From assembly GCA_945864585.1 (NCBI GenBank), contig CAMBCF010000004.1, forward strand, positions 762-64,761: a DNA stretch of 64,000 nucleotides, given 5' to 3'. The translations under genes were made by a program, and so were the position numbers. Shown here in pieces: positions 9,559-28,794 of this stretch. This DNA comes from Bordetella parapertussis (GTDB lineage Bacteria; Pseudomonadota; Gammaproteobacteria; Burkholderiales; SG8-41). Below the pieces are notes generated by a model that worked only from the letters and a program-made list of their open reading frames with translations, was not told the origin of the DNA and did not search any database. Every line of letters begins with the position of its first letter. Positions within the stretch are counted from its first letter, which is position 1.

Positions 9559-10920
9559 TCAGACGGACACGCTACGCGCGGTGCGCATGGTCACGAATTC
9601 TTCGGCGCCCGTGGGATGAATGCCTATTGTCGCATCGAACTGCGCCTTGGTGGCGCCGCATTTGAGCGCTACCGCAAAGCCCTGGATGATTTCGCCAGCC
9701 TCGGCCCCAACCATATGTGCGCCCAACACGCGATCCGTAGCGCGCTCCACCACCAGCTTCATGAAAACGCGTTCCGGGCTACCGGAGAGCGTTGCTTTAA
9801 GCGGACGGAAGTGGGCGATATACACATCAATCACCCTGCCGCGCGCAAGCGCCTGCTCCTCACCCAGCCCGACAGTAGCTATATTGGGATGACTGAACAC
9901 GGCGGTCGGCACCTGCTCGTAATCCATGCGGCGGGAAGCGCTGCCAAACAGGTTATGCGCCAGCACCATGCCTTCAGCCAGCGCCACCGGGGTTAGCTGT
10001 ATGCGGTCTATGGCATCACCGATGGCGTAGATCGAGGGGGTGCTGGTACGGAATTCATCATCCACTTTGATCGCGCCATTCTCCGCGAGCAACACACCGG
10101 CCTCTTTGATCCCGATTCCGGCAGTGTTTGGCGCACGCCCGGTCGCATACATGACCAGGTCTGCCTCCTGCTTCGCGCCCGACGCGAAATGCAGCCGTAA
10201 TGCGCCCGCACTGCGCTCTATGCGCTCGATATTTTCCTCGAGCTTCACAGTAACGCCCTTAAGCGTCATTTCTTCCGCCAGGCGTTTTCCAAGATCGTGG
10301 TCGAAACCGCGCAGCAGTTGCGGCCCGCGATATACCAGTGTTGTTTGCGGGCACAGGCCATTAAATATGGAGGCGAACTCCACCGCAATGTAGCCCCCAC
10401 CCACAACCACGATGCGTTGCGGCAGATGCCCCAGGACAAAGGCCTCATTGGAGGTAATGGCGAGTTCGGCGCCGGGAATGCGTGGCACTACCGGCCAGCC
10501 GCCAGTCGCAATCAGTATGTGCTGCGCCGTCATGCGCCGTCCTGCCGCTACGACCGTGTGCGCATCACTCACCACGCCTCGCGCCGCGATAACTTCGACC
10601 CCGGCTTGCTTGAGCAGCATTGCATAAACGCCGTTGAGTCGCGCAATTTCGGTATTCTTGTTGCTGACCAGTGCCGCCCAGTCAAACGGGCTGGCGCCAG
10701 GTTTCCAGCCATAGCCGCGCGCCTCTTCGAAGTCGGACGCAAAGTGGGCCGCGTATGAAAAAAGTTTTTTGGGTATGCACCCCACATTGACGCAGGTGCC
10801 GCCGAGCCGGCTTTCTTCGATCAACGCAACGCGTGCCCCCAAACCGGCTGCTACGCGGCTTGCGCGCACGCCACCCGAACCGCCACCGATGGTAATTAAA
10901 TCGTAATCGTATTGCGTCAT
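9559..10920 (-). CDS. gor: glutathione-disulfide reductase
   Basis: GGGSGG dinucleotide fold, redox-active GGTCVNVGCIPKK and C-terminal HPTGAEEFVTMR. Confidence 0.9.
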   Translation of the reverse strand: MTQYDYDLITIGGGSGGVRASRVAAGLGARVALIEESRLGGTCVNVGCIPKKLFSYAAHFASDFEEARGYGWKPGASPFDWAALVSNKNTEIARLNGVYAMLLKQAGVEVIAARGVVSDAHTVVAAGRRMTAQHILIATGGWPVVPRIPGAELAITSNEAFVLGHLPQRIVVVGGGYIAVEFASIFNGLCPQTTLVYRGPQLLRGFDHDLGKRLAEEMTLKGVTVKLEENIERIERSAGALRLHFASGAKQEADLVMYATGRAPNTAGIGIKEAGVLLAENGAIKVDDEFRTSTPSIYAIGDAIDRIQLTPVALAEGMVLAHNLFGSASRRMDYEQVPTAVFSHPNIATVGLGEEQALARGRVIDVYIAHFRPLKATLSGSPERVFMKLVVERATDRVLGAHMVGAEAGEIIQGFAVALKCGATKAQFDATIGIHPTGAEEFVTMRTARSVSV

Positions 10921-11131
10921 GGATCCCCCAGGATTGTGTATGGGGGAATTCTAATCGGCAACCACCACAACGCGGGCGTATTTCAGCGACCGGCCGGGCG
11001 AATTGTTTTCGCACACCGGTTGGTGTGATTTTCGTTTAATCTGGGCGTAACATGGGCATGATCCGTGAATAAACTTGTTCAATACAATGTTTGTCGTTGC
11101 ACTTTAATTTTGCGACCAGGAGGGTTGGAAA

Positions 11132-16040: not shown

Positions 16041-16628
16041 TTAATTTTTTTGCTGAAGTACCCAACCGGCCAACTGCGCTAGCTCCGCGTCGGACAGTTG
16101 GGCATTCGGCGGCATCGGCGCGGCGCCCCACGCGCCTGCGCCGCCATACTTGATTTTTTTTGTCAGCGCACCGCGGGCGCCGGCGTCGCCCGCGTATTTC
16201 GCCGCCACCTCTTTAAAGGAGGGACCTACCACACGCTTGTCGATCTGATGACACGCCATGCAGGCATTCGTGGTCAGCAGGCGGGCTACCGGATCGCCGG
16301 ATAGCGCCGGCGTCGTGGCATCGGCCGCAGGCGGCGCGCTGTCGCGGTTGTAATACGTGGCGAGGTATTCAAGTATCGGTGCGATTTCCTCGGGCGCAAT
16401 CGGCGCGCCGCGCTCAATCATGTTTTTGATACTGAATTCCCATTCGCCGCGCGAAAGCTTGGTGCGCGTGATGTGCGTGGCATCATGGCACAGCACACAG
16501 CGCGTGATGGTGATCTCCACGCCCTTGCCGGGAGCCAGTGTTTTGGAAGGCGCGCGTTCGTCCTGCGCTTGCAGCGGCGCGAGACCCGCCGCCAGACAAA
16601 TGCCCGCCAGCGCGGCGCGCAGGCGCAT
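16041..16628 (-). CDS. sorB: dihaem c-type cytochrome, sulfite dehydrogenase cytochrome subunit-like
   Basis: Signal peptide and two CxxCH motifs (CVLCH, CMACH). ATGA start/stop overlap with the upstream molybdoenzyme gene. Confidence 0.8.
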   Translation of the reverse strand: MRLRAALAGICLAAGLAPLQAQDERAPSKTLAPGKGVEITITRCVLCHDATHITRTKLSRGEWEFSIKNMIERGAPIAPEEIAPILEYLATYYNRDSAPPAADATTPALSGDPVARLLTTNACMACHQIDKRVVGPSFKEVAAKYAGDAGARGALTKKIKYGGAGAWGAAPMPPNAQLSDAELAQLAGWVLQQKN

Positions 16629-17917
16629 CAGGCTTCAACCATAAAGCCGACGCGGTGGATGCCATTCCAGAAATACCCCAGCGGATTCCACGCGGTCACA
16701 ATCGGTTGCACATTGCCGCGGCTGTCGGTGGCGCGCGCCAGCACGGTGACAAAGCCCGGCCCGCGCGGGGTGTACTCGTGCGCGAACGTGCGCCAGGCAT
16801 ACGGATCGCCACTGCGGTCAAGCGATGCGCGCTGCCAGCTTGCACCCTCGTCAAACGATACGTCCACGCGGCTGATATTGCCCTCGCCCACCCACGCGCG
16901 GCCTTCCACCTGCACCGCCTTTTCCGCCTTGAACAGGGCATTGGGCGCGGGAGTGGTAATCATCGATTTCACTGGCCACGCCTCCGTCACCAGTGCATCC
17001 GGCGGCAATTTTTCGCCCGGCCTCACGGCGTGGCGTGGTATGCGGTAGCTGGTGTCCATGTAGGTGCCCTTGAACGGCGCGTCCAGCACGGTCAGCGTAT
17101 GCAACCACTTGGTCGAGGCGGAAGCCGCCCAGCCGGGCACGACCAGACGCAGCGGATAACCGTGGATTTTCGGCAGCGGTCCGTCGTTCATGCCGAACAC
17201 GATCATCGTGCCCGTATCCAGGGCTTTCGCCATGGGAATCGAACGAATAATCGGCGCGGCCGTTGCCACCACGCCGAAATCGCCGCCCTGTCCGGCGACG
17301 TGCGCCGCGCCCGCCTTCAGGCCGGCGGCCTGCAACACATCGCGCAACAGCACGCCGTTCCACACCGGGCAACCCATGCCGCCGGTCGCCTGCCACGGCG
17401 TGCCGCTTGGGCGCGGATTGAAGGCCGTGCGTCCGGCGCCCGCGCACTCGAGCATGGCCTGCATGCGCACGACGCGAAACGACTTGCGAAGCTCTTCTAC
17501 GCCATAACTGACCTCGCGCTCGGTCAAACCCTTGATCGTCAAACGGTGTTGCGCGATATCGATGTCGGGCGTCAGCAAATTGTTGCGAACGAACATGCGG
17601 TCATTGGGCGTCACCGCGAAATGATGGTGTTCCGCAGTTACGCTGGCGGTCAACGGTCGTTCGGAATGCATCGGCATGCCGGAGAATTTTTCCGCCATCA
17701 CCGTGCTGTTGGGAATCGCGCCTGCGGGTTCGGGCGGCGGCGTGGGCGCATTCTGTGCAAGCGCCGGGGTTGACACCCCTGCCGTGGCCGCTACGGCTGC
17801 GGCGCCTGCGCCGACGACACGCTCCAAAAAATCGCGCCGTGAGATTAAATCGGCGGGTGTGGGGGCGGGTGGGCGGGCGAGTGAAGGGTTCATGGTGACG
17901 GATCCTGTGTGAATCAC
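16628..17917 (-). CDS. sorA: sulfite-oxidase-family molybdopterin oxidoreductase (sulfite dehydrogenase catalytic subunit)
   Basis: Tat leader SRRDFLERVVGAGAAAVA, Mo-ligand cysteine context MLECAGAGR and a C-terminal dimerisation-domain-like region. Confidence 0.85.
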   Translation of the reverse strand: MIHTGSVTMNPSLARPPAPTPADLISRRDFLERVVGAGAAAVAATAGVSTPALAQNAPTPPPEPAGAIPNSTVMAEKFSGMPMHSERPLTASVTAEHHHFAVTPNDRMFVRNNLLTPDIDIAQHRLTIKGLTEREVSYGVEELRKSFRVVRMQAMLECAGAGRTAFNPRPSGTPWQATGGMGCPVWNGVLLRDVLQAAGLKAGAAHVAGQGGDFGVVATAAPIIRSIPMAKALDTGTMIVFGMNDGPLPKIHGYPLRLVVPGWAASASTKWLHTLTVLDAPFKGTYMDTSYRIPRHAVRPGEKLPPDALVTEAWPVKSMITTPAPNALFKAEKAVQVEGRAWVGEGNISRVDVSFDEGASWQRASLDRSGDPYAWRTFAHEYTPRGPGFVTVLARATDSRGNVQPIVTAWNPLGYFWNGIHRVGFMVEA

Positions 17918-18255
17918 TATTGTGTGTGGATAGAAATTTTATACACTATTTTTCACCAGTCAGCAATTTATCCCCCGCCCGGCGAACAGTCAAATGCGTG
18001 AATTTTCACCAAGCCTCGATGTTATTTTGAAAATATTGCCGCGCGAAACGTTCCGTAGCGGCTGATTTGCGGCCCATCGACGCATTAACACGAGCACCAG
18101 CCGAGCCCACCCATCAACCCTGGCAAAAACCAGTCGGAATCCGGGAATCAAGCCGCCTGAAAAAGATCAACCCGCCGCGCCGGCGCGCGTGGCGGCGGCT
18201 GCGCGCACAACCCCAGATGCGTGAGAATGCGCTCAATCACCGAAGGTTCTTCGAT

Positions 18256-18278
18256 CCCTGTCCTGAGCCTGTCGAAGG
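18256..18278 (+). repeat. 23-nt insert CCTGTCCTGAGCCTGTCGAAGGG
   Basis: Breaks the transposase frame between KIIAV and IEEPSV. Reverse complement of the 18594..18616 element with one mismatch. Confidence 0.75.
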
Positions 18279-18593
18279 GACTGCGATGATCTTCAATTTG
18301 CCACCACACGCTTGGCAGTGCTCAATATCGATGTCGTACACGCGTTTGAGCAAGCGCGCCCAACTCATGCGCACCGGCGCGCTGTGGGCATGCGCATGCG
18401 TGCAACCGCCTTCGCCTGCTGTTGTACTCGGCACCGGCGCCGGCACCACCGTCGAACGTAACTTCGCATTCGGCGCCAGTACCCCATGAAAGCGTATGAG
18501 ATGCAAGCGCGGGCGCGGCACCAGTGCGGCGAGCCGTTGCATGAACTCCAGCGGCGACATCACGATGTGGGTGGCGCCGTTGCGGTAAGGTGT

Positions 18594-18616
18594 CCCTTCG
18601 ACAAGCTCAGGACAGG
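18594..18616 (+). repeat. 23-nt insert CCCTTCGACAAGCTCAGGACAGG (inverted partner)
   Basis: Breaks the transposase frame between VVLKLK and TPYRNG. Confidence 0.75.
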
Positions 18617-18697
18617 TTTGAGTTTGAGCACTACCTGCCCCTGACGGTTCACACTCAACCGTTCGTTGGCCGATCGTAAACAGCAGCCGGGCGCGTG

Positions 18698-18803
18698 ACG
18701 TAGCGTGTAGGGCGGGTTAGGTGCGTTCTTGCGCCGTAACCCGCCGCCTCGCTTGCCCATGCACACCGGCCGGCGGGTTACCCCCGGATCAAGTCCGGGG
18801 TAA
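18698..18803. repeat. composite REP-like element (two GGCGGGTTA...TAACCCGCC hairpins inside an outer GTAGGGCGGGTTA / TAACCCGCCCTAC inverted repeat)
   Basis: Hairpins lie at 18701..18735 and 18762..18799. The second has about 15-nt arms with one bulged C. Confidence 0.7.
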
Positions 18804-18809
18804 CCCGCC

Positions 18810-19250
18810 CTACGTGCTTCTAACTGGCTTCCATCCTTGTGGATTCGTAAAATCTGCACCACACTTCCAGCACATTGGATCGTCATGCCGCAAAGGAGCG
18901 GTGCAGTCTGTTCGGGGGCAGGTGGCGTTGGGTCTCGTGGCATCGGCAATACTTTTCGCTTCCGGAGATGCAGAGGGTGCCGCAGCAGCTAACGAGCCTC
19001 CGCTTTCAACCAGCGGCCCCTGATTCCGTGGGACTTGCGTGTAACTTTCAAATTTGGTTCTTAAAATTACTAACTCTTGGCTTGTAATAAGTAACGCATG
19101 GTTTGTTTTCTTTGCTTCATGAATTAACTGATCTAGCTTACTTTTCGTGCCAAAAATAGCAAACGGCAATATGAACCAAAGAATCGCTAAAACAATTGAA
19201 AACAGCACGATAATGACAGTGAAAGAACCCAATGCGTGCGTATCGGTCAT
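18810..19250 (-). CDS. small membrane protein with a C-terminal Cys-rich (zinc-ribbon-like) tail
   Basis: 146-aa ORF with TM segment FTVIIVLFSIVLAILWFILPFAIFG, a coiled segment, then CPRTDC...CWKCGADF. The 5' half is visibly AT-richer than the 3' half, and the 3' end runs into the REP element, so the true C-terminus is uncertain. Confidence 0.4.
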   Translation of the reverse strand: MTDTHALGSFTVIIVLFSIVLAILWFILPFAIFGTKSKLDQLIHEAKKTNHALLITSQELVILRTKFESYTQVPRNQGPLVESGGSLAAAAPSASPEAKSIADATRPNATCPRTDCTAPLRHDDPMCWKCGADFTNPQGWKPVRST

Positions 19251-19481
19251 CTGGGAACTTCTTGTTTGTTAGAAATCCACAGTTCATGGGTGCGTCATCG
19301 TTTATGGGTGCATCGCACGCAGGGTAGAGTAGACAGGCGCAAGCCTGATCTACCCTACCCTTCACATTGGCTAATCTGGGTGCGTGTAATCGCTTCGCGT
19401 AAGCCCTGAAACATCGTGCCATTCACACCATTCGCACCGCTGCTGCGCCTGTCTTGCGAGGCCAGAACTCTAAGCCCGCGG

Positions 19482-19904
19482 CTATCGCAGCATCGTCGGC
19501 TGCAATGATTGCCCGCCGGTGTCGTAACCGACTCGGAAATAAGACGGTTTGCCCGCTACAAGTGTCGCTGATCGCTCAAGCAATCCGGCGAGTGCGGCCA
19601 AGCAATTTGGCTCGATTCCTAGAATTACTTCACCAGCGGGAATGTGCAGCGTTACCTTTTCTGAAGTTGATAGCCGCGCTGCGAGTTGCCCGTTGACGAA
19701 TATTTTTGTGTCGCAGGCAGCGCCCGACCATCCGCTATCGCGTATCACAAGCACCGGCGCTGTGTTTGCGCCTGGCTGTTTGAAAAGCAGATGTTTTGAT
19801 GGTGGCACTGGCGTAGCTTCGCTGCTCGGCACTGGCGTTGTGGCGCAGCCCACAAAAAATAGAAGAATAGAAATCAATGTATATCGCATAGTGTTCGTCC
19901 TCAT
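19482..19904 (-). CDS. putative lipoprotein (DUF2846-like pattern)
   Basis: Lipobox LLFFVGC after MRYTLISI. The mature part has VLVIRD...IFVNGQLAARL...LHIPAGEVIL, reminiscent of DUF2846 lipoproteins. Confidence 0.5.
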   Translation of the reverse strand: MRTNTMRYTLISILLFFVGCATTPVPSSEATPVPPSKHLLFKQPGANTAPVLVIRDSGWSGAACDTKIFVNGQLAARLSTSEKVTLHIPAGEVILGIEPNCLAALAGLLERSATLVAGKPSYFRVGYDTGGQSLQPTMLR

Positions 19905-20086
19905 TTTTCGAGTGCCAAACGCTTGCCGCGCTGGACAAGCTCGCTTTCAACTCTCGTGATGCGCGCGTTGCATAAAATCGCAATTTCGTCTGTGCCTGGC
20001 TCACGGCCAGCCATTGCCGAACGCCAGAATGAATAATAATCCTTTGTTATAGATGCGGCTAGTGGATTACGCGCGGATCGCTTCAC
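19901..20086 (-). CDS. hypothetical small protein
   Basis: 61-aa ORF overlapping the lipoprotein start by 4 nt. No family recognised, and the 5' end abuts a transposase fragment. Confidence 0.25.
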   Translation of the reverse strand: MKRSARNPLAASITKDYYSFWRSAMAGREPGTDEIAILCNARITRVESELVQRGKRLALEK

Positions 20087-20089
20087 CGC

Positions 20090-20165
20090 GGCGATGTAAA
20101 AGACTTGCGCGTGCAGCGGTCAACATCAATGTCGAGCACACGCTTGAGCAGTCGCGCCCATGTCA
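20090..20165 (-). mobile_element. IS91-family transposase gene fragment d
   Basis: Minus-strand translation MTWARLLKRVLDIDVDRCTRK parallels MSWARLLKRVYDIDIEHCQACGG of fragment c. Confidence 0.55.
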
Positions 20166-20420
20166 TCGCGACCGCCTTACAAAATAATTCACTGCGACCA
20201 TACCACTATCATTTACATCCTCGACTCCAGCATCAACTTGCTTCTGAATGTCTTCCCGTCCGCCTTGAAGCATCTTCTCGATAAGTTGTTTATGCTCCCT
20301 CTCGAACCACTCGAATAGAGAAAGTTCGTTTGCGTCTAACCCACGCAACTCGATTAAATACTTTAAAAAGTGGTTCCTAAACTCTCCTTGAAGATGAAGC
20401 GGAATGTTTTTCTTGTCCAA
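20163..20420 (-). CDS. hypothetical protein, AT-richer than surroundings (TTG start, 3' end fused to transposase fragment)
   Basis: 85-aa ORF reading MDKKNIPLHLQGEFRNHFLKYLIELRGLD.... No family recognised and probably truncated. Confidence 0.3.
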   Translation of the reverse strand: MDKKNIPLHLQGEFRNHFLKYLIELRGLDANELSLFEWFEREHKQLIEKMLQGGREDIQKQVDAGVEDVNDSGMVAVNYFVRRSR

Positions 20421-20560
20421 TTGTCCACATCCTTCACTATCATGAACCGCGTTGGGTGCTAGCTTTGATCGGCATCACAGCGCAGCCCCGCGTGCAAGCT
20501 GAAGCCGTGGGCGTTGTTGCAGCGTTGTTGTGTGACCGGCGCCTGGCGGCGAAAGCGATA

Positions 20561-20965
20561 CTACCCAGCAAGAAATTCCTGCATGGACAATGCGATTGCG
20601 GGCACTGCCTTTTGAAGCTTCCGGTCTTCCGTAATCAACGGGACATTCAGGCTTTGCGCCAGCGCAACGTATTGCGCGTCGTAGCCGGTTATGGCGTATT
20701 CCGCCGCTACGGCAAGCACCGTATCCATCACCACTTCGCACTGCGCAACCTTGATGAAGCGCTCGACATGGCTCAGCAAGGCCCGGCACTGCACGAACGT
20801 CAGCACTTCGCGCCGCTGATAGGTTGTCAGCACGTTCACTGTTTCATGCAAGCACAGCGCTGCGGTACGCCAATCGGCATCTTTTCCGCGCAGCTTCTGG
20901 ATAAGCGGTGACTGGTCGCATTTGATCAATGAGTAGATCAGGATATTGGCGTCAACGACAATCAT
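20561..20965 (-). CDS. vapC: PIN-domain ribonuclease toxin VapC
   Basis: N-terminus MIVVDANILIY, TGYDAQYVALA and PLITEDRKL supply the PIN acidic residues. 4-nt overlap with the upstream antitoxin gene. Confidence 0.85.
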   Translation of the reverse strand: MIVVDANILIYSLIKCDQSPLIQKLRGKDADWRTAALCLHETVNVLTTYQRREVLTFVQCRALLSHVERFIKVAQCEVVMDTVLAVAAEYAITGYDAQYVALAQSLNVPLITEDRKLQKAVPAIALSMQEFLAG

Positions 20966-21213
20966 TTCGACGGGATTGTTTTGTTCAAATCCCGGGTCTT
21001 GCGGATGACAGAAACAACATTACCACGTGTGAGCGGCTTTACCGGTTTGAGCGGATCGGGCAGCAGATCGGCTGCATCCCTTGCAGGAGCAGCCAATGCC
21101 TGTTCCAGAAACGCCAGAGCTTGCCGAGTCATGGAGCGATGATAGTGTGCGGCTTCTGCCTTAAGCCTACGGTGCAATTCAGGTGGAAAGTCTTTAATCA
21201 ATAAGCCCGGCAT
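20962..21213 (-). CDS. vapB: ribbon-helix-helix (Arc/FitA-like) antitoxin VapB
   Basis: The 83-aa ORF has an RHH signature at its N-terminus, MPGLLIKDFPPELHRRLKAEAAHYHRSMTRQALAFLEQAL. Confidence 0.8.
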   Translation of the reverse strand: MPGLLIKDFPPELHRRLKAEAAHYHRSMTRQALAFLEQALAAPARDAADLLPDPLKPVKPLTRGNVVSVIRKTRDLNKTIPSK

Positions 21214-21232
21214 GACATCCTCGATACTATGT

Positions 21233-21258
21233 AAATGGTATCAAAATGATAGCCATTT
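21233..21258. promoter_or_regulatory. near-palindrome AAATGGTATCA n3 TGATAGCCATTT, candidate vapBC operator
   Basis: Located about 20-45 nt upstream of the vapB start on the minus strand. Confidence 0.4.
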
Positions 21259-21466
21259 CGGGCTGAAGCGTCAACCCGCGACACCCGCTCTCAGACGTCT
21301 GCCTCGCTAAAATCATGCCGTCATTTAGACCTCCTCCCCGTTGGACAAGGCTGGTGACATAGCGCTACAGTCGTTCAAGCTTACTGCGCTGATCGGACGC
21401 TACTTTACTCTGTTGCGTTCTTGGCGTGCGGCGGCTTGCCGCCACATTCAAACAGCGGCACGGCCA

Positions 21467-24792: not shown

Positions 24793-24900
24793 AGCTGGCG
24801 CACGCGCTCAAATTCTGTTCTTCCCCCATTCCGCTCTCTTGTGCTTTCGTTGCAACGTGATGTATGGTGCGTGATGTTTGATGCAGAACTGGAGGCTGTC

Positions 24901-25130
24901 ATGCGCACTACACTGGCAATAGATGATGACGTTCTGACTGCGGTCAAAAGACTTGCGGCCCGGCAAAAAAAACCGTTGGCAAGGTGGTATCCGAACTTGC
25001 ACGCCAGTCCCTGCGTCCCGCAGCGGCTTCCGGAAAGCTCCGTAACGGTGTTCCACTGCTCCCGGTTAATGCCAACGCAAGCCCGGTGACGCTGGCAGTT
25101 GTCATCGCGCTGCGAGACGAATCGCCGTGA
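24901..25130 (+). pseudogene. vapB: VapB-type antitoxin gene with a frameshift in an A8 tract
   Basis: Reads MRTTLAIDDDVLTAVKRLAARQKK, then the A8 run (24965..24972), then in another frame VGKVVSELARQSLRP...RNGVPLLP...VIALRDESP-stop. The stop overlaps the vapC GTG (GTGA). One extra A would restore a 76-aa ORF. Confidence 0.8.
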
Positions 25131-25561
25131 CCGCCTATCTGCTCGATGTCAACGTGTTGATTGCACTGATTGACCCGGCGCATGTCCATTACGATACCGC
25201 TCATGCGTGGTTCAAGGCGAGCGGCCGACGTAGCTGGGCAAGCTGCCCGTTAACCGAAAACGGCTTCATCCGTATTGTCAGCCACCCAAAATATCCCAAT
25301 TGCATCGGCTCTCCTGGATTGGCGGCCGATGTCATGGCGCGTCTCTGTAGATTGCCCGGCCACGTTTTCTGGCCGGAAGACATCAGTGTCTTGGACAACC
25401 AGTACATAGACATCACGCGGCTGCTCAGTTCCTCACAAATAACCGACAGCTACCTGTTGGCGCTAGCCCGCGCTCACGACGGGCAACTAGCCACCTTCGA
25501 CAACCGCCTGGTTGTCGATGCTGTGCGCAACGGCCGCGCGGTCTTACATTTGATCAAGTAA
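25127..25561 (+). CDS. vapC: PIN-domain toxin VapC (intact)
   Basis: The 144-aa ORF carries YLLDVNVLIALIDP and ITDSYLLALARAH, which contain the PIN acidic residues. Confidence 0.85.
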   Translation: MTAYLLDVNVLIALIDPAHVHYDTAHAWFKASGRRSWASCPLTENGFIRIVSHPKYPNCIGSPGLAADVMARLCRLPGHVFWPEDISVLDNQYIDITRLLSSSQITDSYLLALARAHDGQLATFDNRLVVDAVRNGRAVLHLIK

Positions 25562-25693: not shown

Positions 25694-26473
25694 TTAGCAG
25701 CGCCCTTGAGTTTGTCGCACCCGTTCAAACAGACACACCGCCGCTGCCGCTGCGACATTCAGTGATTCGGTGGACGCACTTATCGGAATGGCCATCGCAC
25801 CGTGGGCGCATTGCAGCAGCGCATCTGACACGCCCGCGCCTTCGTTGCCGAACACCAGCGCGATTTTCCCGCGTAGATCGGTGTTGAAAACACTTTTTGT
25901 TGCATGCTGTTGAGCCACCAGTACGCGGCCCGGAAACGCGCGCGCAAATGCAAGCAAATCGATACGCTCGTGAACCTCAAGGCTGAAGTGCGCGCCCATG
26001 CCGGCCCGCAGCACACGCGGTGACCATGCATTTACGCAATGTATTGAAAGGAATATTTGCCTGACGCTGACAGCAGCGCACGAGCGCAATATCGAGCCGA
26101 GATTGCCGGGGTCTTGCACGTCTTCGAGCATCACGCAGGTGTCCAGTACGCCGGGCAACCCTACACGCTGGGGGGTTTTGATGACCGCGATGATGCCGGT
26201 GGGTGTAGCCACTGACGACAGTTGCTTGAACAGGTGGTCGCTCAATAACCAGACGTGCGCTGCGTTTTGCAACAGCGTGCGAATTTCGGGATTGTCCGCG
26301 CCGACGTGGCTCACGATAATTTTCTCGGGCTCACCGAGGCGCAAGCGATACGCCTGCAGCAAATGCACACCATCCAACAGCGAATAGCCCGCGAGCCTGC
26401 GCTCGCGCGATGAATGCACCAGCTTTAACAGCGCCTTGAATTGCGGATTGTCCGCCGAGGTAATTTGTTTCAA
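25694..26473 (-). CDS. TrmH/SpoU-family RNA 2'-O-methyltransferase
   Basis: SpoU motifs are present: LEDVQDPGNLGSILRS, LVFGNEGAGVS and IPISASTESLNVAAAAAV. Confidence 0.85.
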   Translation of the reverse strand: MKQITSADNPQFKALLKLVHSSRERRLAGYSLLDGVHLLQAYRLRLGEPEKIIVSHVGADNPEIRTLLQNAAHVWLLSDHLFKQLSSVATPTGIIAVIKTPQRVGLPGVLDTCVMLEDVQDPGNLGSILRSCAAVSVRQIFLSIHCVNAWSPRVLRAGMGAHFSLEVHERIDLLAFARAFPGRVLVAQQHATKSVFNTDLRGKIALVFGNEGAGVSDALLQCAHGAMAIPISASTESLNVAAAAAVCLFERVRQTQGRC

Positions 26474-26488: not shown

Positions 26489-27808
26489 TCAGTCAAGCGC
26501 GCAGGTTCTGAAACCCGCCAGCACATCGCGCCGGTCGGGGGTGTAGAAATTGCGCCACGTATTACGCAACAGGCTTGCGCGCGTGGCGTAGCAACCGCCG
26601 CGCAGCACTTTGTGATTGCCGAACCACGGCTCGGAGTATTCCTGATACGGGTCGCGCACGAACCCGGGATACGGGTTGAACCAGTCCGCCGTCCACTCCC
26701 ACACGTTGCCAAACATCTGGCGCACGCCCCAGGCGCTGTCGCCATCGGGAAAAGCCGCCACATCCAGGGTGCCGGAGGCAACGCCAAACAGATTCGCGTG
26801 TGCCGCCGTGGGCGGCGTGTCGCCCCACGGATAGCGGCGCTTGCGTGTGTCATCGCCCGGTATCGTCGCTGCGGCGAATTCCCACTCGGCTTCACTGGGG
26901 AGACGCCGCTGTGCCCAGTTGCAGTAGGCCTCCGCCTCATACCAGTTGACGTGAATGACTGCGGCATTTGCTTCCAGACGCATCAGCGCATCGTAACGCC
27001 GCACCCACCACTCACTGCCCTGCCTGCTCCAATACAAGGGCCCGGTCGCGCCAGCCGCTACACGCCAGCGCCACCCCTCGTCACGCCATAATTCACGCCG
27101 CGTATAACCCGCGTCATCTGCAAACGCCGCGAACTCGGCGTTGGTGACGGCCACGCGCGCGATGCGGTACGGCGGCACTTCCACTGGGTACGCCCACTTT
27201 TCATTGTCAAAAATAAAGCCCTCATTTGCGCCGGCCCCGAGCATGAACTGGCCGCCGCTAATGCGCGCATCACCAGCGGGAGGATGTGGCGTAACTATTT
27301 GTTTTTGTTCAACTGTTCGAACCGCATTACCCAGCGTCTGGTGCGTGTAGTCAAATGCTTCATTGTGCATTTCTTCATGGAACGCTGCGAGCTGCGCAAA
27401 ATAGCGCAGGTGTCCGGTTGCGCCTTCGCGCTGGATGCGTTCGAGTACGGCATCGAACACCACGCGCAAATATTCAAGCGTCTGATCACCCGTTGGCAGC
27501 GGTAGATGCCAGCGCTTCGCGTGCGGCACCAGGGCCGAGTTGTACAACGCATCCGCGTCCTGCCGCATCGGCTCGGCGAGCGATCCATCGGGCCGGTAGC
27601 GCAAACACCAATGCTCCTGAAACCAGGCCAGATGCCCCAGCTCCCACAGTGGCGGGTTGACGATTGTTAAGTACGGACCAAGCCATTGATCCGCTTGCAA
27701 TCGCATGGCATAAGCCAGGGTGCGTACACGCGCCGCATGCAGTATTTCGCACAGCGTTGAGACGCCGGGTTGGATTTGTTCAGTTGGCATACCGTAGATG
27801 GAGTTCAT
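26489..27808 (-). CDS. EgtB/SenA-family enzyme (DinB-like N-domain + FGE/SUMF1-type C-domain)
   Basis: N-domain motifs WELGHLAWFQEHW and FHEEMHNEAF. C-domain motifs GNVWEWTADWF and LRGGCYATRASLLRNTWRNFYTPDRRDVLAGFRTC. Confidence 0.75.
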   Translation of the reverse strand: MNSIYGMPTEQIQPGVSTLCEILHAARVRTLAYAMRLQADQWLGPYLTIVNPPLWELGHLAWFQEHWCLRYRPDGSLAEPMRQDADALYNSALVPHAKRWHLPLPTGDQTLEYLRVVFDAVLERIQREGATGHLRYFAQLAAFHEEMHNEAFDYTHQTLGNAVRTVEQKQIVTPHPPAGDARISGGQFMLGAGANEGFIFDNEKWAYPVEVPPYRIARVAVTNAEFAAFADDAGYTRRELWRDEGWRWRVAAGATGPLYWSRQGSEWWVRRYDALMRLEANAAVIHVNWYEAEAYCNWAQRRLPSEAEWEFAAATIPGDDTRKRRYPWGDTPPTAAHANLFGVASGTLDVAAFPDGDSAWGVRQMFGNVWEWTADWFNPYPGFVRDPYQEYSEPWFGNHKVLRGGCYATRASLLRNTWRNFYTPDRRDVLAGFRTCALD

Positions 27809-27846
27809 TTGCTATAGTGGCGCGAGTGTATCCTTGAAATGACTAT

Positions 27847-28794
27847 GTGAAAATCGCATTGATCACACCCGCGGCGCCCGGCTCGCGGCACGGCAACCGC
27901 GGCACTGCCACGCGCTGGGCGGGCATGCTGCGTGAACTGGGTCACCGTGTCAGCATCCAGGTGGATTGGGATGGCGCCGCAACCGATTTGATGCTGGCGC
28001 TGCACGCGCGCCGCAGTCACGCGTCGATGCGCAACTATGCGATGTGTTATCCCGGGCAACCCTTGATACTTGCGCTGACCGGCACCGATTTATATCGCGA
28101 TATTCGCAGCGACGCCGAAGCGCAGGCATCGCTGCAACTGGCCACGCGCATGATCGTGCTGCAGGAGATGGGGCTTGCTAAACTCGCGCCGGCGCTGCGC
28201 CGAAAAACACGCGTGGTGTATCAATCGGCGCCGCAGGTGAAACGCCTGCCGCCACTGACATCGTGCTTCGAAGTCGTGGTCAGTGGTCATCTGCGCGACG
28301 AAAAAGATCCCTTTCGTGCCGTAGCGGCGCTAGCCTACCTGCCCGATGCATCGCGCATCCGCGTCACCCACATCGGCGGTGCGATGTCAGCCGAAATGGC
28401 GCAACAAGCGCGTATCTGGATGGCCGGCGAAAAGCGTTACCGCTGGCTGGGCGAAGTCACGCACGGCACAGCGCTGCGTTTGCTTGCCCGCAGCCGACTG
28501 ATGGTGATCAGCTCGCGCATGGAAGGCGGCGCCAATGTGGTGAGTGAAGCGCTGGCGAACAGTGTGCCTGTTATCGCCTCGCGGATCGCGGGCAATGTCG
28601 GCATGCTGGGCAGGGATTATGCAGGCTACTACCCGCTCGAAGATCAGCGTGCGCTGGCGCGGCTATTGTTGCGCGCGGAAACGGATAACACTTACTACCG
28701 CAAACTCGCCGCGCAATGCCGCGCACGCAAGCCGCTGGTGACCCACGCCAGCGAACGCAATGCGTTGCAGCGGGTGTTGGCGGAAATCTCGTAG
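27847..28794 (+). CDS. GT-B glycosyltransferase resembling the SenB selenosugar-synthase family (TIGR04348-like, from memory)
   Basis: GTG start. N-terminus KIALITPAAPGSRHGNRGTATRWAGMLRELGH, with FEVVVSGHLRDEKDP and MEGGANVVSEALANSVPVIASRIAGN. Divergent, 38 nt from the EgtB/SenA-like gene. Confidence 0.6.
   Translation: MKIALITPAAPGSRHGNRGTATRWAGMLRELGHRVSIQVDWDGAATDLMLALHARRSHASMRNYAMCYPGQPLILALTGTDLYRDIRSDAEAQASLQLATRMIVLQEMGLAKLAPALRRKTRVVYQSAPQVKRLPPLTSCFEVVVSGHLRDEKDPFRAVAALAYLPDASRIRVTHIGGAMSAEMAQQARIWMAGEKRYRWLGEVTHGTALRLLARSRLMVISSRMEGGANVVSEALANSVPVIASRIAGNVGMLGRDYAGYYPLEDQRALARLLLRAETDNTYYRKLAAQCRARKPLVTHASERNALQRVLAEIS

What the first reader, a model, noticed from the sequence alone, without database searches (positions are those of the whole stretch)
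26489..28794. Divergent EgtB/SenA-like synthase and SenB-like glycosyltransferase with no selD/egtD partner in 64 kb
The 439-aa protein has the two-domain architecture of EgtB, OvoA and SenA. Its DinB-like domain carries His-rich motifs (WELGHLAWFQEHW, HEEMHNEAF) and its FGE/SUMF1-type domain carries GNVWEWTADWF and RGGCYATRA...AGFRTC. These enzymes make C-S or C-Se bonds on histidine derivatives. Only 38 nt away and divergent lies a 315-aa GT-B glycosyltransferase (KIALITPAAPGSRHGNRGTATRWA..., MEGGANVVSEAL...PVIASRIAGN). From memory this looks like the SenB selenosugar-synthase family that accompanies SenA in selenoneine clusters (Kayrouz et al. 2022). Described sen clusters also contain senC, a SelD paralogue. 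Here no selenophosphate synthetase and no hercynine-forming EgtD-like methyltransferase is visible anywhere in the window. The synthase is instead followed within 15 nt by a TrmH/SpoU methyltransferase gene. This may be a split selenoneine pathway or a variant chemistry using a different donor or acceptor. The divergent genes also share a very short control region.
Basis: partly seen in the sequence, partly recalled or inferred. Interest (0 to 1): 0.6.

Follow-up and report, generated by a model that had tools for sequence, protein, structure and literature searches.

The report
Selenoneine senA–senB pair, partners unlinked

Summary
A 439-aa gene (26489-27808, -) and a 315-aa gene (27847-28794, +) diverge across 38 nt. 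A SpoU/TrmH gene lies 15 nt downstream of the first. Verified SelD and EgtD probes find nothing in the 64 kb.

The two proteins are not divergent family members. They pass NCBI's curated equivalog cut-offs for SenA (478 bits, cut-off 420) and SenB (417, cut-off 300), and fail those for EgtB and OvoA. The synthase carries the published SenA composite motif, not the OvsA or EgtB one. The glycosyltransferase keeps every published selenophosphate-pocket and catalytic residue. Both genes are under purifying selection like their housekeeping neighbours.

The missing partners are not unusual:
- egtD is rarely co-localised (Kayrouz et al.; 1 of 82 related loci here).
- Only 4 of 37 related SenB loci with at least 5 kb of flank on each side carry selD.
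- The layout trmH-senA<>senB-rnhB recurs in 26 other related loci, most of them Burkholderiales or other betaproteobacterial MAGs.
- Canonical Burkholderiales clusters read selU-senB<>senA-selD, so one general SelD can feed SenB.

Best reading: a split selenoneine pathway that uses unlinked selD and egtD. This is a new member of a known kind and of low interest. I could not search the rest of the genome for selD or egtD.

The parts
26489..27808 (-). senA, selenoneine synthase (non-haem-iron selenoxide synthase; DinB-like plus FGE-type domains), 439 aa
   Evidence: NCBIfam NF041186 SenA scores 478.1 bits (cut-off 420). EgtB scores 318.5 (below 360) and OvoA 125 (below 400). Pfam gives DinB_2 + FGE-sulfatase. 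The residues read off the PDB alignments match the published SenA rule xNEH--HRHxHYYN(F/Y)(F/Y)R: Fe ligands H59, H144, H148; H96 and R99; catalytic Y388; Y391, N420, F421, Y422. dN/dS is 0.12-0.22 against relatives.
27847..28794 (+). senB, selenosugar synthase (Se-glycosyltransferase, GT-B fold), 315 aa, GTG start
   Evidence: NCBIfam TIGR04348 SenB scores 417.2 bits (cut-off 300). It aligns over its full length to the solved SenB structures 8jjn, 8fbx and 8k5u at 212-224 bits. The SeP-pocket and catalytic residues N17, T20, H53, R56, T78, T80, D81, R150, K153, E226 and E234 correspond to VpSenB N20, T23, H58, R61, T83, T85, D86, R155, K158, E231 and E239. All but one are invariant in the alignable sequences among 81 relatives; the R61 equivalent is Lys in 7 of them. 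dN/dS is 0.09-0.24. The GTG start is needed to include N17 and T20; some gene callers used a later start that gives 289 aa.
27809..27846 (.). 38-nt divergent intergenic region holding a conserved TGnTATAGT element (27810-27818, + strand, extended -10-like, 28 nt upstream of the senB GTG) and a conserved AGTGTAT (27825-27831)
   Evidence: The sequence was read. The motifs TTTG[CT]TATAGT and AGTGTAT are largely conserved in L003-L007 and L011 (SenB 78-95% identical), with small variants in L006 and L011, while the rest of the spacer diverges and lengthens to 39-68 nt. Promoter function is inferred. The consensus sigma-70 scan, which requires a -35 element, found nothing in the gap.
25694..26473 (-). 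Neighbour only: SpoU/TrmH-family RNA 2'-O-methyltransferase, 15 nt downstream of senA and probably co-transcribed. Not considered part of the pathway.
   Evidence: Pfam gives SpoU_methylase plus MRM3-like substrate-binding domain. The best NCBIfam match is RlmB at 90.6 bits, below its cut-off of 160. A homologue flanks senB in 49 of 82 related loci, including 22 without senA, and is absent from canonical selD-linked clusters.

Best explanation
The locus encodes the two pathway-specific enzymes of selenoneine biosynthesis. SenB takes selenophosphate and a UDP-sugar and makes a 1-seleno-sugar. SenA, a non-haem-iron selenoxide synthase, couples that selenosugar to C2 of hercynine, and the selenoxide then eliminates to give selenoneine. 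The two substrates the locus cannot make come from unlinked genes: selenophosphate from a general cellular SelD, and hercynine from the EgtD of an ergothioneine pathway. The pair sits in a conserved housekeeping slot (ppsA-ppsR...trmH | senA<>senB | rnhB-lpxB-lpxA-fabZ-lpxD) that is inherited across a clade of mostly Burkholderiales and other betaproteobacterial MAGs.

Shown here: family membership, active-site conservation, purifying selection, the recurrence of the layout, and the absence of selD and egtD from the 64 kb.
Inferred: that selD and egtD exist elsewhere in this genome, and that selenoneine is actually made.
For: 1. Both proteins exceed the curated equivalog cut-offs for SenA and SenB and fall below those for EgtB and OvoA.
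2. The window SenA score of 478 lies inside the range of SenAs from canonical selD-linked clusters, 462-519.
3. The SenA composite motif is met in full: Fe triad, catalytic Tyr, His and Tyr at the EgtB Arg87 and Asp416 positions, and the hercynine triad Y/N/F.
4. The SenB selenophosphate pocket, the Se-P-cleaving Lys and the sugar-binding residues are all conserved.
5. dN/dS for senA and senB is 0.09-0.24, the same as for rnhB and trmH.
6. The same layout is found in 26 other loci, down to about 55% SenB identity. These include a 2-Mb JGI contig and the isolate Pelomicrobium sp. G1.
7. Among related loci with at least 5 kb of flank, 17 of the 20 that contain senA lack selD. egtD is present in 1 of 82.
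8. [quoted passage not shown] Only 827 of 2,353 TIGR04348 loci had egtB and selD homologues within 5 kb. The related ovs genes are chromosomally separated in Marinobacter vinifirmus, which still makes the product.
9. In canonical Burkholderiales clusters the selD beside senA also lies in the same cluster as selU (selU-senB<>senA-selD). A SelD shared with the selenouridine pathway can therefore serve SenB.
Against: No selD or egtD was found on the available DNA, and I could not search the rest of the genome. The pathway is therefore incomplete as observed. The source appears to be a metagenome-assembled contig of up to 124 kb, so even the full bin might not settle whether they are absent. Pairwise, the synthase scores higher against OvsA (281 bits) and M. 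thermoresistibile EgtB (258) than against V. paradoxus SenA (246). It therefore belongs to a longer SenA subtype that has not itself been characterised biochemically. Two second-shell SenB residues differ from VpSenB (V157 to E, and EGGAHV to EGGANV), which could shift sugar-donor preference.
Confidence: 0.8

Rival explanations
1. Variant chemistry. The lineage has no selenophosphate synthetase at all. SenB then uses another chalcogen donor, for example a sulfur donor giving a thiosugar, and SenA makes ergothioneine or another imidazole-thione or -selone by a two-enzyme route.
For: No selD lies within 64 kb here, nor within 10 kb in most relatives. This includes 22 loci where senB stands without senA. 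SenB differs from VpSenB at V157 (Glu here) and in the EGGAHV motif (EGGANV here).
Against: Every residue shown by mutagenesis to bind selenophosphate or to cleave the Se-P bond is conserved. SenA keeps the selenosugar-type His and Tyr pair. Thioglucose was reported to be a very poor SenA substrate, and SenC does not make thiophosphate. Close relatives in the SenB and SenA trees are canonical selD-linked clusters. An unlinked selD is the simpler explanation and has published precedent.
Confidence: 0.05
2. Stranded pair. The genome has lost selD and/or egtD. The genes are then idle, or they depend on imported hercynine or on substrates supplied by the community.
For: The partners are absent from all DNA available for this lineage. 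Relatives L003 and L004 also lack them within 10 kb.
Against: Both genes are intact and under purifying selection as strong as that on the flanking housekeeping genes (dN/dS 0.09-0.24). The layout persists over divergences at which synonymous sites are saturated (dS above 1). That is not what is expected of idle genes.
Confidence: 0.08
3. Misassigned synthase. The 439-aa protein is really an OvsA-type (histidine C5, ovoselenol) or EgtB-type (thiol) enzyme. That would explain why no egtD is needed.
For: The best pairwise PDB hits are OvsA (280.6 bits) and MthEgtB (258.4), ahead of VpSenA (246). No egtD is in the window.
Against: The top hit, 8ux5, appears to be the OvsA-YNF variant that was engineered to behave like SenA: its sequence differs from 8u41 at exactly those three positions. 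At the three specificity positions the window protein has Y/N/F where OvsA has M/Q/A. There is no OvsM-type methyltransferase nearby. The EgtB Arg87 and Asp416 thiol-binding pair is replaced by His and Tyr. The EgtB and OvoA HMM scores are below their cut-offs while the SenA score is above its cut-off.
Confidence: 0.03
4. The adjacent TrmH/SpoU methyltransferase replaces EgtD by methylating histidine or a pathway intermediate.
For: It lies 15 nt downstream of senA on the same strand. A homologue is next to senA or senB in 49 of 82 related loci.
Against: It has the architecture of an RNA 2'-O-methyltransferase, an MRM3-like RNA substrate-binding domain plus a SpoU domain. To my knowledge no SPOUT enzyme is known to methylate a small-molecule amine. 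It stays beside senB where senA is absent and is missing from canonical clusters. In L003 it abuts ppsR as part of the housekeeping backbone.
Confidence: 0.01

Closest known systems
Variovorax paradoxus sen cluster (senA-senB-senC; Kayrouz et al. 2022, preprint 10.1101/2022.04.13.486033; structures 8k5i/8ryz for SenA and 8jjn/8fbx for SenB)
   Same: The two enzyme families are the same by curated HMM. The SenA composite motif and the SenB selenophosphate pocket and catalytic Lys are the same. egtD is likewise not in the cluster.
   Different: No senC/selD is adjacent. The synthase is a longer subtype (439 aa) and aligns to VpSenA in two stretches at 246 bits. SenB has Glu in place of V157 and EGGANV in place of EGGAHV. 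The pair is embedded in a housekeeping gene row rather than a stand-alone cassette.
Canonical Burkholderiales clusters selU-senB<>senA-selD (L085, L086, L087)
   Same: The divergent senB<>senA core is the same, and both genes pass the same HMM cut-offs (L086: SenA 462, SenB 374).
   Different: Those clusters carry selD and selU on either side, and their SenA is short (355-366 aa). SenAs of this short Burkholderiales type that were compared (L055, L079, L080, L083) are 42-46% identical to the window SenA. In the window, trmH and rnhB occupy the flanking positions.
Rubrobacteraceae and Blastocatellia clusters senA-senB-selD (L027, L045, L069, L082)
   Same: These are the closest selD-linked relatives of the window SenA, at 47-57% identity and of the long subtype. 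L069 scores 519 bits and L082 493 on the SenA model.
   Different: selD is adjacent, 145-180 nt after senB in the Rubrobacteraceae loci. They belong to different phyla.
Ovoselenol pathway (OvsA/OvsM plus SenB/SenC; Kayrouz et al. 2024, preprint 10.1101/2024.04.10.588772; structures 8u41/8u42/8ux5)
   Same: OvsA is the best pairwise structural homologue of the synthase. It shares the selenosugar-side His and Tyr. The pathway sets a precedent for functional genes that are chromosomally separated, as in M. vinifirmus.
   Different: OvsA has M/Q/A at the acceptor positions and uses histidine at C5. The window protein has Y/N/F. There is no OvsM-type methyltransferase here.
EgtB type I (Mycolicibacterium thermoresistibile, 4x8b)
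   Same: The fold, the Fe triad and the catalytic Tyr are the same, as are the hercynine-binding Tyr and Asn.
   Different: The thiol-binding Arg87 and Asp416 are replaced by His and Tyr. The score on TIGR03440 is 318.5, below the cut-off of 360.

Membership tests
SenA (selenoneine synthase, NF041186) | Scores at or above the curated equivalog cut-off, and below the cut-offs of the sister families EgtB and OvoA | tested here: met
   SenA 478.1 bits (cut-off 420). EgtB 318.5 (cut-off 360). OvoA N-terminal model 125.2 (cut-off 400). SenAs from canonical clusters score 462-519.
SenA (selenoneine synthase, NF041186) | Published composite active-site motif xNEH--HRHxHYYN(F/Y)(F/Y)R: Fe triad, catalytic Tyr, hercynine-binding and selenol-binding residues | tested here: met
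   The rule is quoted. The residues were read from the alignments to OvsA and MthEgtB: N-E-H59 / H96-R99 / H144-M-H148 / Y388-Y391-N420-F421-Y422-R. The 10 of these positions that I tabulated are conserved across 40 related SenAs; the last one varies only as Y, F or A. The two leading positions (N, E) and the final R were read by eye from the printed alignment.
SenA (selenoneine synthase, NF041186) | [quoted passage not shown] | not testable with these tools
   This needs an enzyme assay or metabolite analysis.
SenB (selenosugar synthase, TIGR04348) | Scores at or above the curated equivalog cut-off rather than clustering with generic GT4 enzymes | tested here: met
   417.2 bits (cut-off 300). 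The next best family scores 96.3 bits against a cut-off of 400.
SenB (selenosugar synthase, TIGR04348) | Selenophosphate pocket (N20, H58, R61, T83, T85, R155) and the Se-P-cleaving Lys K158 | tested here: met
   The residues are defined. They map to N17, H53, R56, T78, T80, R150 and K153 by the alignment. They are invariant in the alignable sequences among 81 relatives, except that the R61 equivalent is Lys in 7.
SenB (selenosugar synthase, TIGR04348) | UDP-sugar-binding residues (T23, E231, E239) and the EGGAHV motif | tested here: met
   T20, E226 and E234 are conserved. The motif is EGGANV (His to Asn), as in 73 of 81 relatives, and V157 is Glu. The catalytic residues are met; the motif differs in one non-catalytic residue.
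sen biosynthetic gene cluster as defined by Kayrouz et al. (egtB homologue + TIGR04348 + selD within 5 kb) | A selD/senC homologue within 5 kb of senB | tested here: not met
   The best tblastn hit of the SelD probes anywhere in the 64 kb has E = 0.11, and no AIRS domain appears in the scanned ORFs. The locus is therefore a senAB pair and not a three-gene sen BGC.
Selenoneine pathway (functional) | The genome also encodes SelD (selenophosphate) and EgtD (hercynine) | not testable with these tools
   Only 64 kb of the genome is available. 
OvsA (ovoselenol selenoxide synthase) | Acceptor-site triad M/Q/A (composite motif ...YMQAYR) and an associated OvsM N-pi-methyltransferase | tested here: not met
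   The window protein has Y391/N420/F421. No OvoA-type or OvsM-type methyltransferase is in the window; the only nearby methyltransferase is of the SpoU type.
EgtB type I (TIGR03440) | The HMM cut-off and the thiol-binding Arg87/Asp416 pair | tested here: not met
   318.5 bits, below the cut-off of 360. Arg87 is replaced by His96 and Asp416 by Tyr422.
   PvdO scores 33.6 bits (cut-off 500) and PorK/GldK 47.9 (cut-off 350). FGE structures match only the C-terminal domain, at about 100 bits or less.

The most novel reading that the evidence does not exclude
The betaproteobacterial clade that keeps senB beside trmH has no selenophosphate synthetase at all. This would cover the window lineage with senA, and Thiobacillus, Sulfuricella and Hydrogenophilales without senA. 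SenB there would use a different chalcogen donor, or would feed a different acceptor enzyme. In Thiobacillus a YcaO gene directly follows senB, which would point to an undescribed seleno- or thio-sugar-dependent pathway.
Probability: 0.05. Interest if true: 0.7.

Novelty: new member of a known kind. Interest (0 to 1): 0.2.

Why it matters
It matters little for discovery. The enzymes, their mechanism and their structures have been published since 2022-2024. NCBI's curated models would name both proteins, and close relatives are already labelled SenB or TIGR04348 in public records.

One modest point is useful. The three-gene sen cluster is not the only layout, and in this clade it is not the main one. 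In the sampled SenB relatives, which are largely betaproteobacterial, the conserved unit is the divergent senB<>senA core. selD is usually unlinked, or is found in the same cluster as selU. Genome-mining rules that require a selD within 5 kb will therefore miss many likely selenoneine producers, most of them uncultured Burkholderiales and other betaproteobacteria known only as MAGs.

Tried and rejected
1. A regular-expression search of all six frames for the SelD active-site motif (G-C/U-G-C/U-K and variants) gave only one spurious hit in an antisense frame. I replaced it with tblastn using SelD probes checked against NCBIfam.

2. Extending beyond the window along its own contig failed. The exact SenA and SenB proteins are recorded on contigs of up to 124 kb, but only a 6.2-kb contig was served. 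Source names were also absent for these proteins.

3. Testing for selD elsewhere in the genome by contig-length matching failed. I searched with a Burkholderiales SelD from L080 and compared the longest_contig values of the 120 best hits with the known senAB contig lengths (2,016,069; 624,996; 511,526; 475,499; 303,184; 195,538 and others). None matched. The listed hits were all at least 79% identical to the query, so the test had little reach. The result is inconclusive and is not evidence of absence.

4. The consensus sigma-70 and terminator scan of 25.5-29.1 kb found nothing in the 38-nt gap and no more sites than in shuffled sequence. The conserved TGnTATAGT element came from aligning the gaps of relatives instead.

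5. I considered OvsA seriously, because it was the best PDB hit. I rejected it on the three specificity residues and because the top hit appears to be the SenA-mimicking YNF mutant.

6. I considered TrmH as a substitute for EgtD and rejected it on domain architecture and synteny.

7. I did not run structure prediction or fold search, because solved structures of both families already align over the full length.

8. I did not use the metagenome-collection scan for SelD.
Full report
OBSERVATION. ORF 26489-27808 (-) encodes 439 aa and ORF 27847-28794 (+, GTG start) encodes 315 aa. They diverge across 38 nt (27809-27846). A 259-aa ORF, 25694-26473 (-), begins 15 nt downstream of the 439-aa gene. 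Pfam gives DinB_2 + FGE-sulfatase for the first protein, Glycos_transf_1 for the second, and an MRM3-like substrate-binding domain plus SpoU_methylase for the third. GC content around the pair (0.60) matches the window average, so nothing suggests recent import.

IDENTITY OF THE TWO PROTEINS. In the sequence sense these are not divergent members of their families. Against NCBIfam, the synthase scores 478.1 bits on the SenA equivalog model (cut-off 420). It scores 318.5 on EgtB (cut-off 360), 125 on the OvoA N-terminal model (cut-off 400) and 34 on PvdO (cut-off 500). The glycosyltransferase scores 417.2 on TIGR04348/SenB (cut-off 300), and the next family reaches only 96 bits.

One result needed explaining. 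By pairwise phmmer against PDB sequences, the best match of the synthase is OvsA, the ovoselenol selenoxide synthase (8ux5, 280.6 bits). M. thermoresistibile EgtB follows (258 bits) and then V. paradoxus SenA (246 bits, in two stretches). OvsA uses histidine rather than hercynine and so needs no EgtD, which made the distinction important.

The printed alignments resolve it. 8ux5 appears to be the engineered OvsA-YNF mutant: its sequence differs from 8u41 at exactly the three positions that Kayrouz et al. mutated to turn OvsA into a SenA-like enzyme. At those positions (OvsA M401/Q430/A431) the window protein has Y391/N420/F421, which is the hercynine-binding SenA state. The Fe ligands are H59, H144 and H148, and the catalytic Tyr is Y388. 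The two EgtB thiol-binding residues Arg87 and Asp416 are His96 and Tyr422, the substitution reported for all SenA proteins. Collapsed in the way the 2024 paper describes, the protein reads N-E-H / H-R / H-M-H / Y-Y-N-F-Y-R. That satisfies the SenA rule xNEH--HRHxHYYN(F/Y)(F/Y)R and not the OvsA rule ...YMQAYR or the EgtB-I rule. SenAs from canonical selD-linked clusters score 462-519 bits on the same model and also fall below the EgtB cut-off. The window protein at 478 bits is therefore typical. It belongs to a longer SenA subtype of about 430-460 aa. This subtype is shared with Rubrobacteraceae and Blastocatellia clusters that do carry selD, at 47-57% identity.

For SenB, the alignment to the solved V. 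paradoxus enzyme covers the full length at 224 bits. The residues that mutagenesis identified as the selenophosphate pocket are N20, H58, R61, T83, T85 and R155. K158 cleaves the Se-P bond, and T23, E231 and E239 contact the sugar and UDP. All of these are present in the window protein, as N17, H53, R56, T78, T80, R150, K153, T20, E226 and E234. The visible differences are V157 to Glu and EGGAHV to EGGANV. Both are shared by most relatives and may affect sugar-donor preference.

ARE THE PARTNERS REALLY ABSENT? Yes, from these 64 kb.
- I took SelD sequences from related loci and scored three of them against NCBIfam. All three pass TIGR00476, and the two full-length ones also pass NF002098 at 517-528 bits against a cut-off of 299.
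- Five such probes were then run by tblastn. The best window hit has E = 0.11 and lies inside rpsB.
- An EgtD taken from a Polynucleobacter locus scores 366 bits on TIGR03438 (cut-off 291). It gives no window hit at E <= 10.
- Pfam scans of 33 window ORFs show housekeeping and miscellaneous functions. These include ETF, a MacB/FtsX-type permease, a disulfide oxidoreductase, aconitase, a SorAB-like molybdoenzyme with its cytochrome c, ppsA and ppsR, RNase HII, LpxB, GlnD, a peptide deformylase, a GalU-like enzyme, a PilT-like ATPase and PIN toxins. None has an AIRS or Methyltransf_33 domain.
- The only tRNA is tRNA-Gly, and there is no tRNA-Sec.

IS THAT UNUSUAL? No. [quoted passage not shown] It also counted 2,353 TIGR04348 loci, of which only 827 had both egtB and selD homologues within 5 kb.

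I checked this directly. Two close relatives keep the row ppsA-ppsR...trmH-senA<>senB-rnhB-lpxB-lpxA-fabZ-lpxD, with no AIRS protein within 10 kb. One has 95% SenB identity on a 195-kb contig and the other 78% on a 2-Mb contig.

A scan of species-representative genomes with a SenB alignment returned 80 loci at 49-82% identity. A tblastn census found three layouts:
- trmH-senA<>senB, usually followed by rnhB, with no selD. There are 27 loci including the window. Most are Burkholderiales or other betaproteobacterial MAGs, and one is the isolate Pelomicrobium sp. G1.
- trmH<>senB with neither senA nor selD. There are 22 loci, from Thiobacillus, Sulfuricella sp. T08 and Hydrogenophilales.
- selD present near senB, in 12 of 82 loci, most of them also with senA.

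Restricting to loci with at least 5 kb on both sides of senB, 4 of 37 have selD, and 17 of the 20 that contain senA lack it. egtD occurs in 1 of 82. This sample is biased towards the window's SenB clade and is not a census of the whole family. In neighbour-joining trees the window clade is coherent and lies next to canonical selD-linked clusters. The SenB pocket residues and the SenA motif are conserved in all layouts.

Looking from the SelD side, three Burkholderiales contigs show selU-senB<>senA-selD. The divergent senB<>senA core is thus the conserved unit. The SelD called SenC there lies in the same cluster as the 2-selenouridine synthase gene. A general cellular SelD can evidently supply SenB, so an unlinked one is plausible. 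The ovs system gives an experimentally supported precedent for chromosomally separated genes of this kind, in M. vinifirmus.

ARE THE GENES FUNCTIONAL? Nei-Gojobori dN/dS against six relatives is 0.12-0.22 for senA and 0.09-0.24 for senB. This cannot be told apart from rnhB (0.11-0.25) and trmH (0.11-0.40). It holds at divergences where synonymous sites are saturated.

THE NEIGHBOURS AND THE 38-NT GAP. The TrmH/SpoU protein has an RNA-binding N-terminal domain and a SPOUT methylase domain. It is next to senB whether or not senA is present, and it is missing from canonical clusters. I treat it as part of the housekeeping backbone into which senAB is set, not as an EgtD substitute.

The short gap is real for the closest relatives (39-68 nt) but ranges up to 365 nt in others. 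It contains a TGnTATAGT element (27810-27818) and an AGTGTAT (27825-27831). Both are largely conserved among relatives at 78-95% SenB identity while the surrounding spacer diverges. The first looks like an extended -10 promoter placed to drive senB without a -35 element. That is an inference. The consensus scan, which requires a -35, reports nothing in the gap.

MECHANISM. Shown here:
- Family membership by curated models.
- Conservation of the active sites.
- Purifying selection on both genes.
- Recurrence of the layout in related genomes.
- Absence of selD and egtD from the 64 kb.

Taken from the literature on these families:
- SenB couples selenophosphate to a UDP-sugar and hydrolyses the Se-P bond to give a 1-seleno-sugar.
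- SenA uses Fe(II) and O2 to join the selenosugar to C2 of hercynine.
- The selenoxide then eliminates the sugar to give selenoneine.

Inferred: that this organism has selD and egtD elsewhere and makes selenoneine. I put this at about 0.8.

The main alternatives are:
- A stranded pair that depends on external substrates (about 0.08).
- A different chalcogen donor or acceptor (about 0.05).
- A misassigned OvsA-type or EgtB-type enzyme (about 0.03).
- TrmH acting as the missing methyltransferase (about 0.01).

LIMITS. I could not search the rest of the genome. 

VERDICT. The suggestion of unusual or variant chemistry is not supported. This is a new member of a known kind, in a gene layout that is common but seldom remarked on. 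Interest is 0.2.

Noticed in passing
L020, L021, L022, L028, L029, L032-L037, L040, L042-L044, L050, L065, L067, L076-L078, L081 (senB at about 10001-10945 in full-length loci): 22 related loci have senB divergent from trmH with no senA and no selD within the available flank (10 kb or less). They come from Thiobacillus, Sulfuricella sp. T08, Hydrogenophilales and some Burkholderiales MAGs. These orphan SenBs still pass TIGR04348 (441-444 bits for the two tested) and keep the selenophosphate-pocket and catalytic residues. What uses the selenosugar there is unknown.
   Followed up: partly
L042:10986-12740 (+), and the same ORF family in 11 loci (for example L062:1065-2789): In Thiobacillus a YcaO-family protein (584 aa, YcaO + YcaO_C domains) starts 23 nt after the orphan senB on the same strand. 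A senB-ycaO pairing has not been described, to my knowledge.
   Followed up: partly
L085:6794-11053, L086:6831-11050, L087:3554-7771: Canonical Burkholderiales clusters are arranged selU (rhodanese + AAA_SelU) - senB <> senA - selD. A single selD lies in the same cluster as both the selenouridine and the selenoneine genes.
   Followed up: partly
window 27810-27818 and 27825-27831: A TGnTATAGT element (extended -10-like) and an AGTGTAT lie in the 38-nt senA<>senB gap. Both are largely conserved in relatives at 78-95% SenB identity while the rest of the spacer diverges. This is a candidate senB promoter lacking a -35 element.
   Followed up: partly
window 27847 vs 27925 (senB start): Public gene calls for the identical protein use a later start that gives 289 aa (P0005; L001 and L002). 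That start removes the catalytic N17 and T20, so the 315-aa GTG start is the functional one. Relatives are called at 315-316 aa.
   Followed up: yes
window 24841-25561 (+): A small ORF plus a PIN-domain protein (a VapBC-like toxin-antitoxin pair) sits between ppsR and trmH. In the 95%-identical relative L003, ppsR and trmH abut directly, so this is a recent insertion.
   Followed up: partly
window about 18000-21300: A lower-GC patch (0.54-0.55 against about 0.60) holds a Y2-transposase fragment (18240-18716) and a FitA-like antitoxin plus PIN toxin pair (20564-21240). It is probably a small mobile or degraded island.
   Followed up: no
L030:1100-2050, L045:3636-4541, L069:8677-9582, L082:3412-4368: The selD ORFs in the Rubrobacteraceae and Blastocatellia sen clusters begin after the N-terminal active-site region. 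This would fit an in-frame UGA (selenocysteine) at the SelD active site. I did not check it.
   Followed up: no
window 16044-17938 (-): A SorAB-like pair: a molybdopterin oxidoreductase (Oxidored_molyb + Mo-co_dimer) followed by a cytochrome c. This fits a sulfur-oxidising lifestyle like that of the related Thiobacillus and Sulfuricella lineages.
   Followed up: no
L005, L010, L017, L018, L031, L041, L049, L067, L072, L075 (record titles): Several MAG records that carry this betaproteobacterial synteny are labelled Bordetella parapertussis, Klebsiella pneumoniae, Streptomycetaceae, Enterobacteriaceae or Planctomycetaceae. These taxonomic labels look wrong.
   Followed up: no
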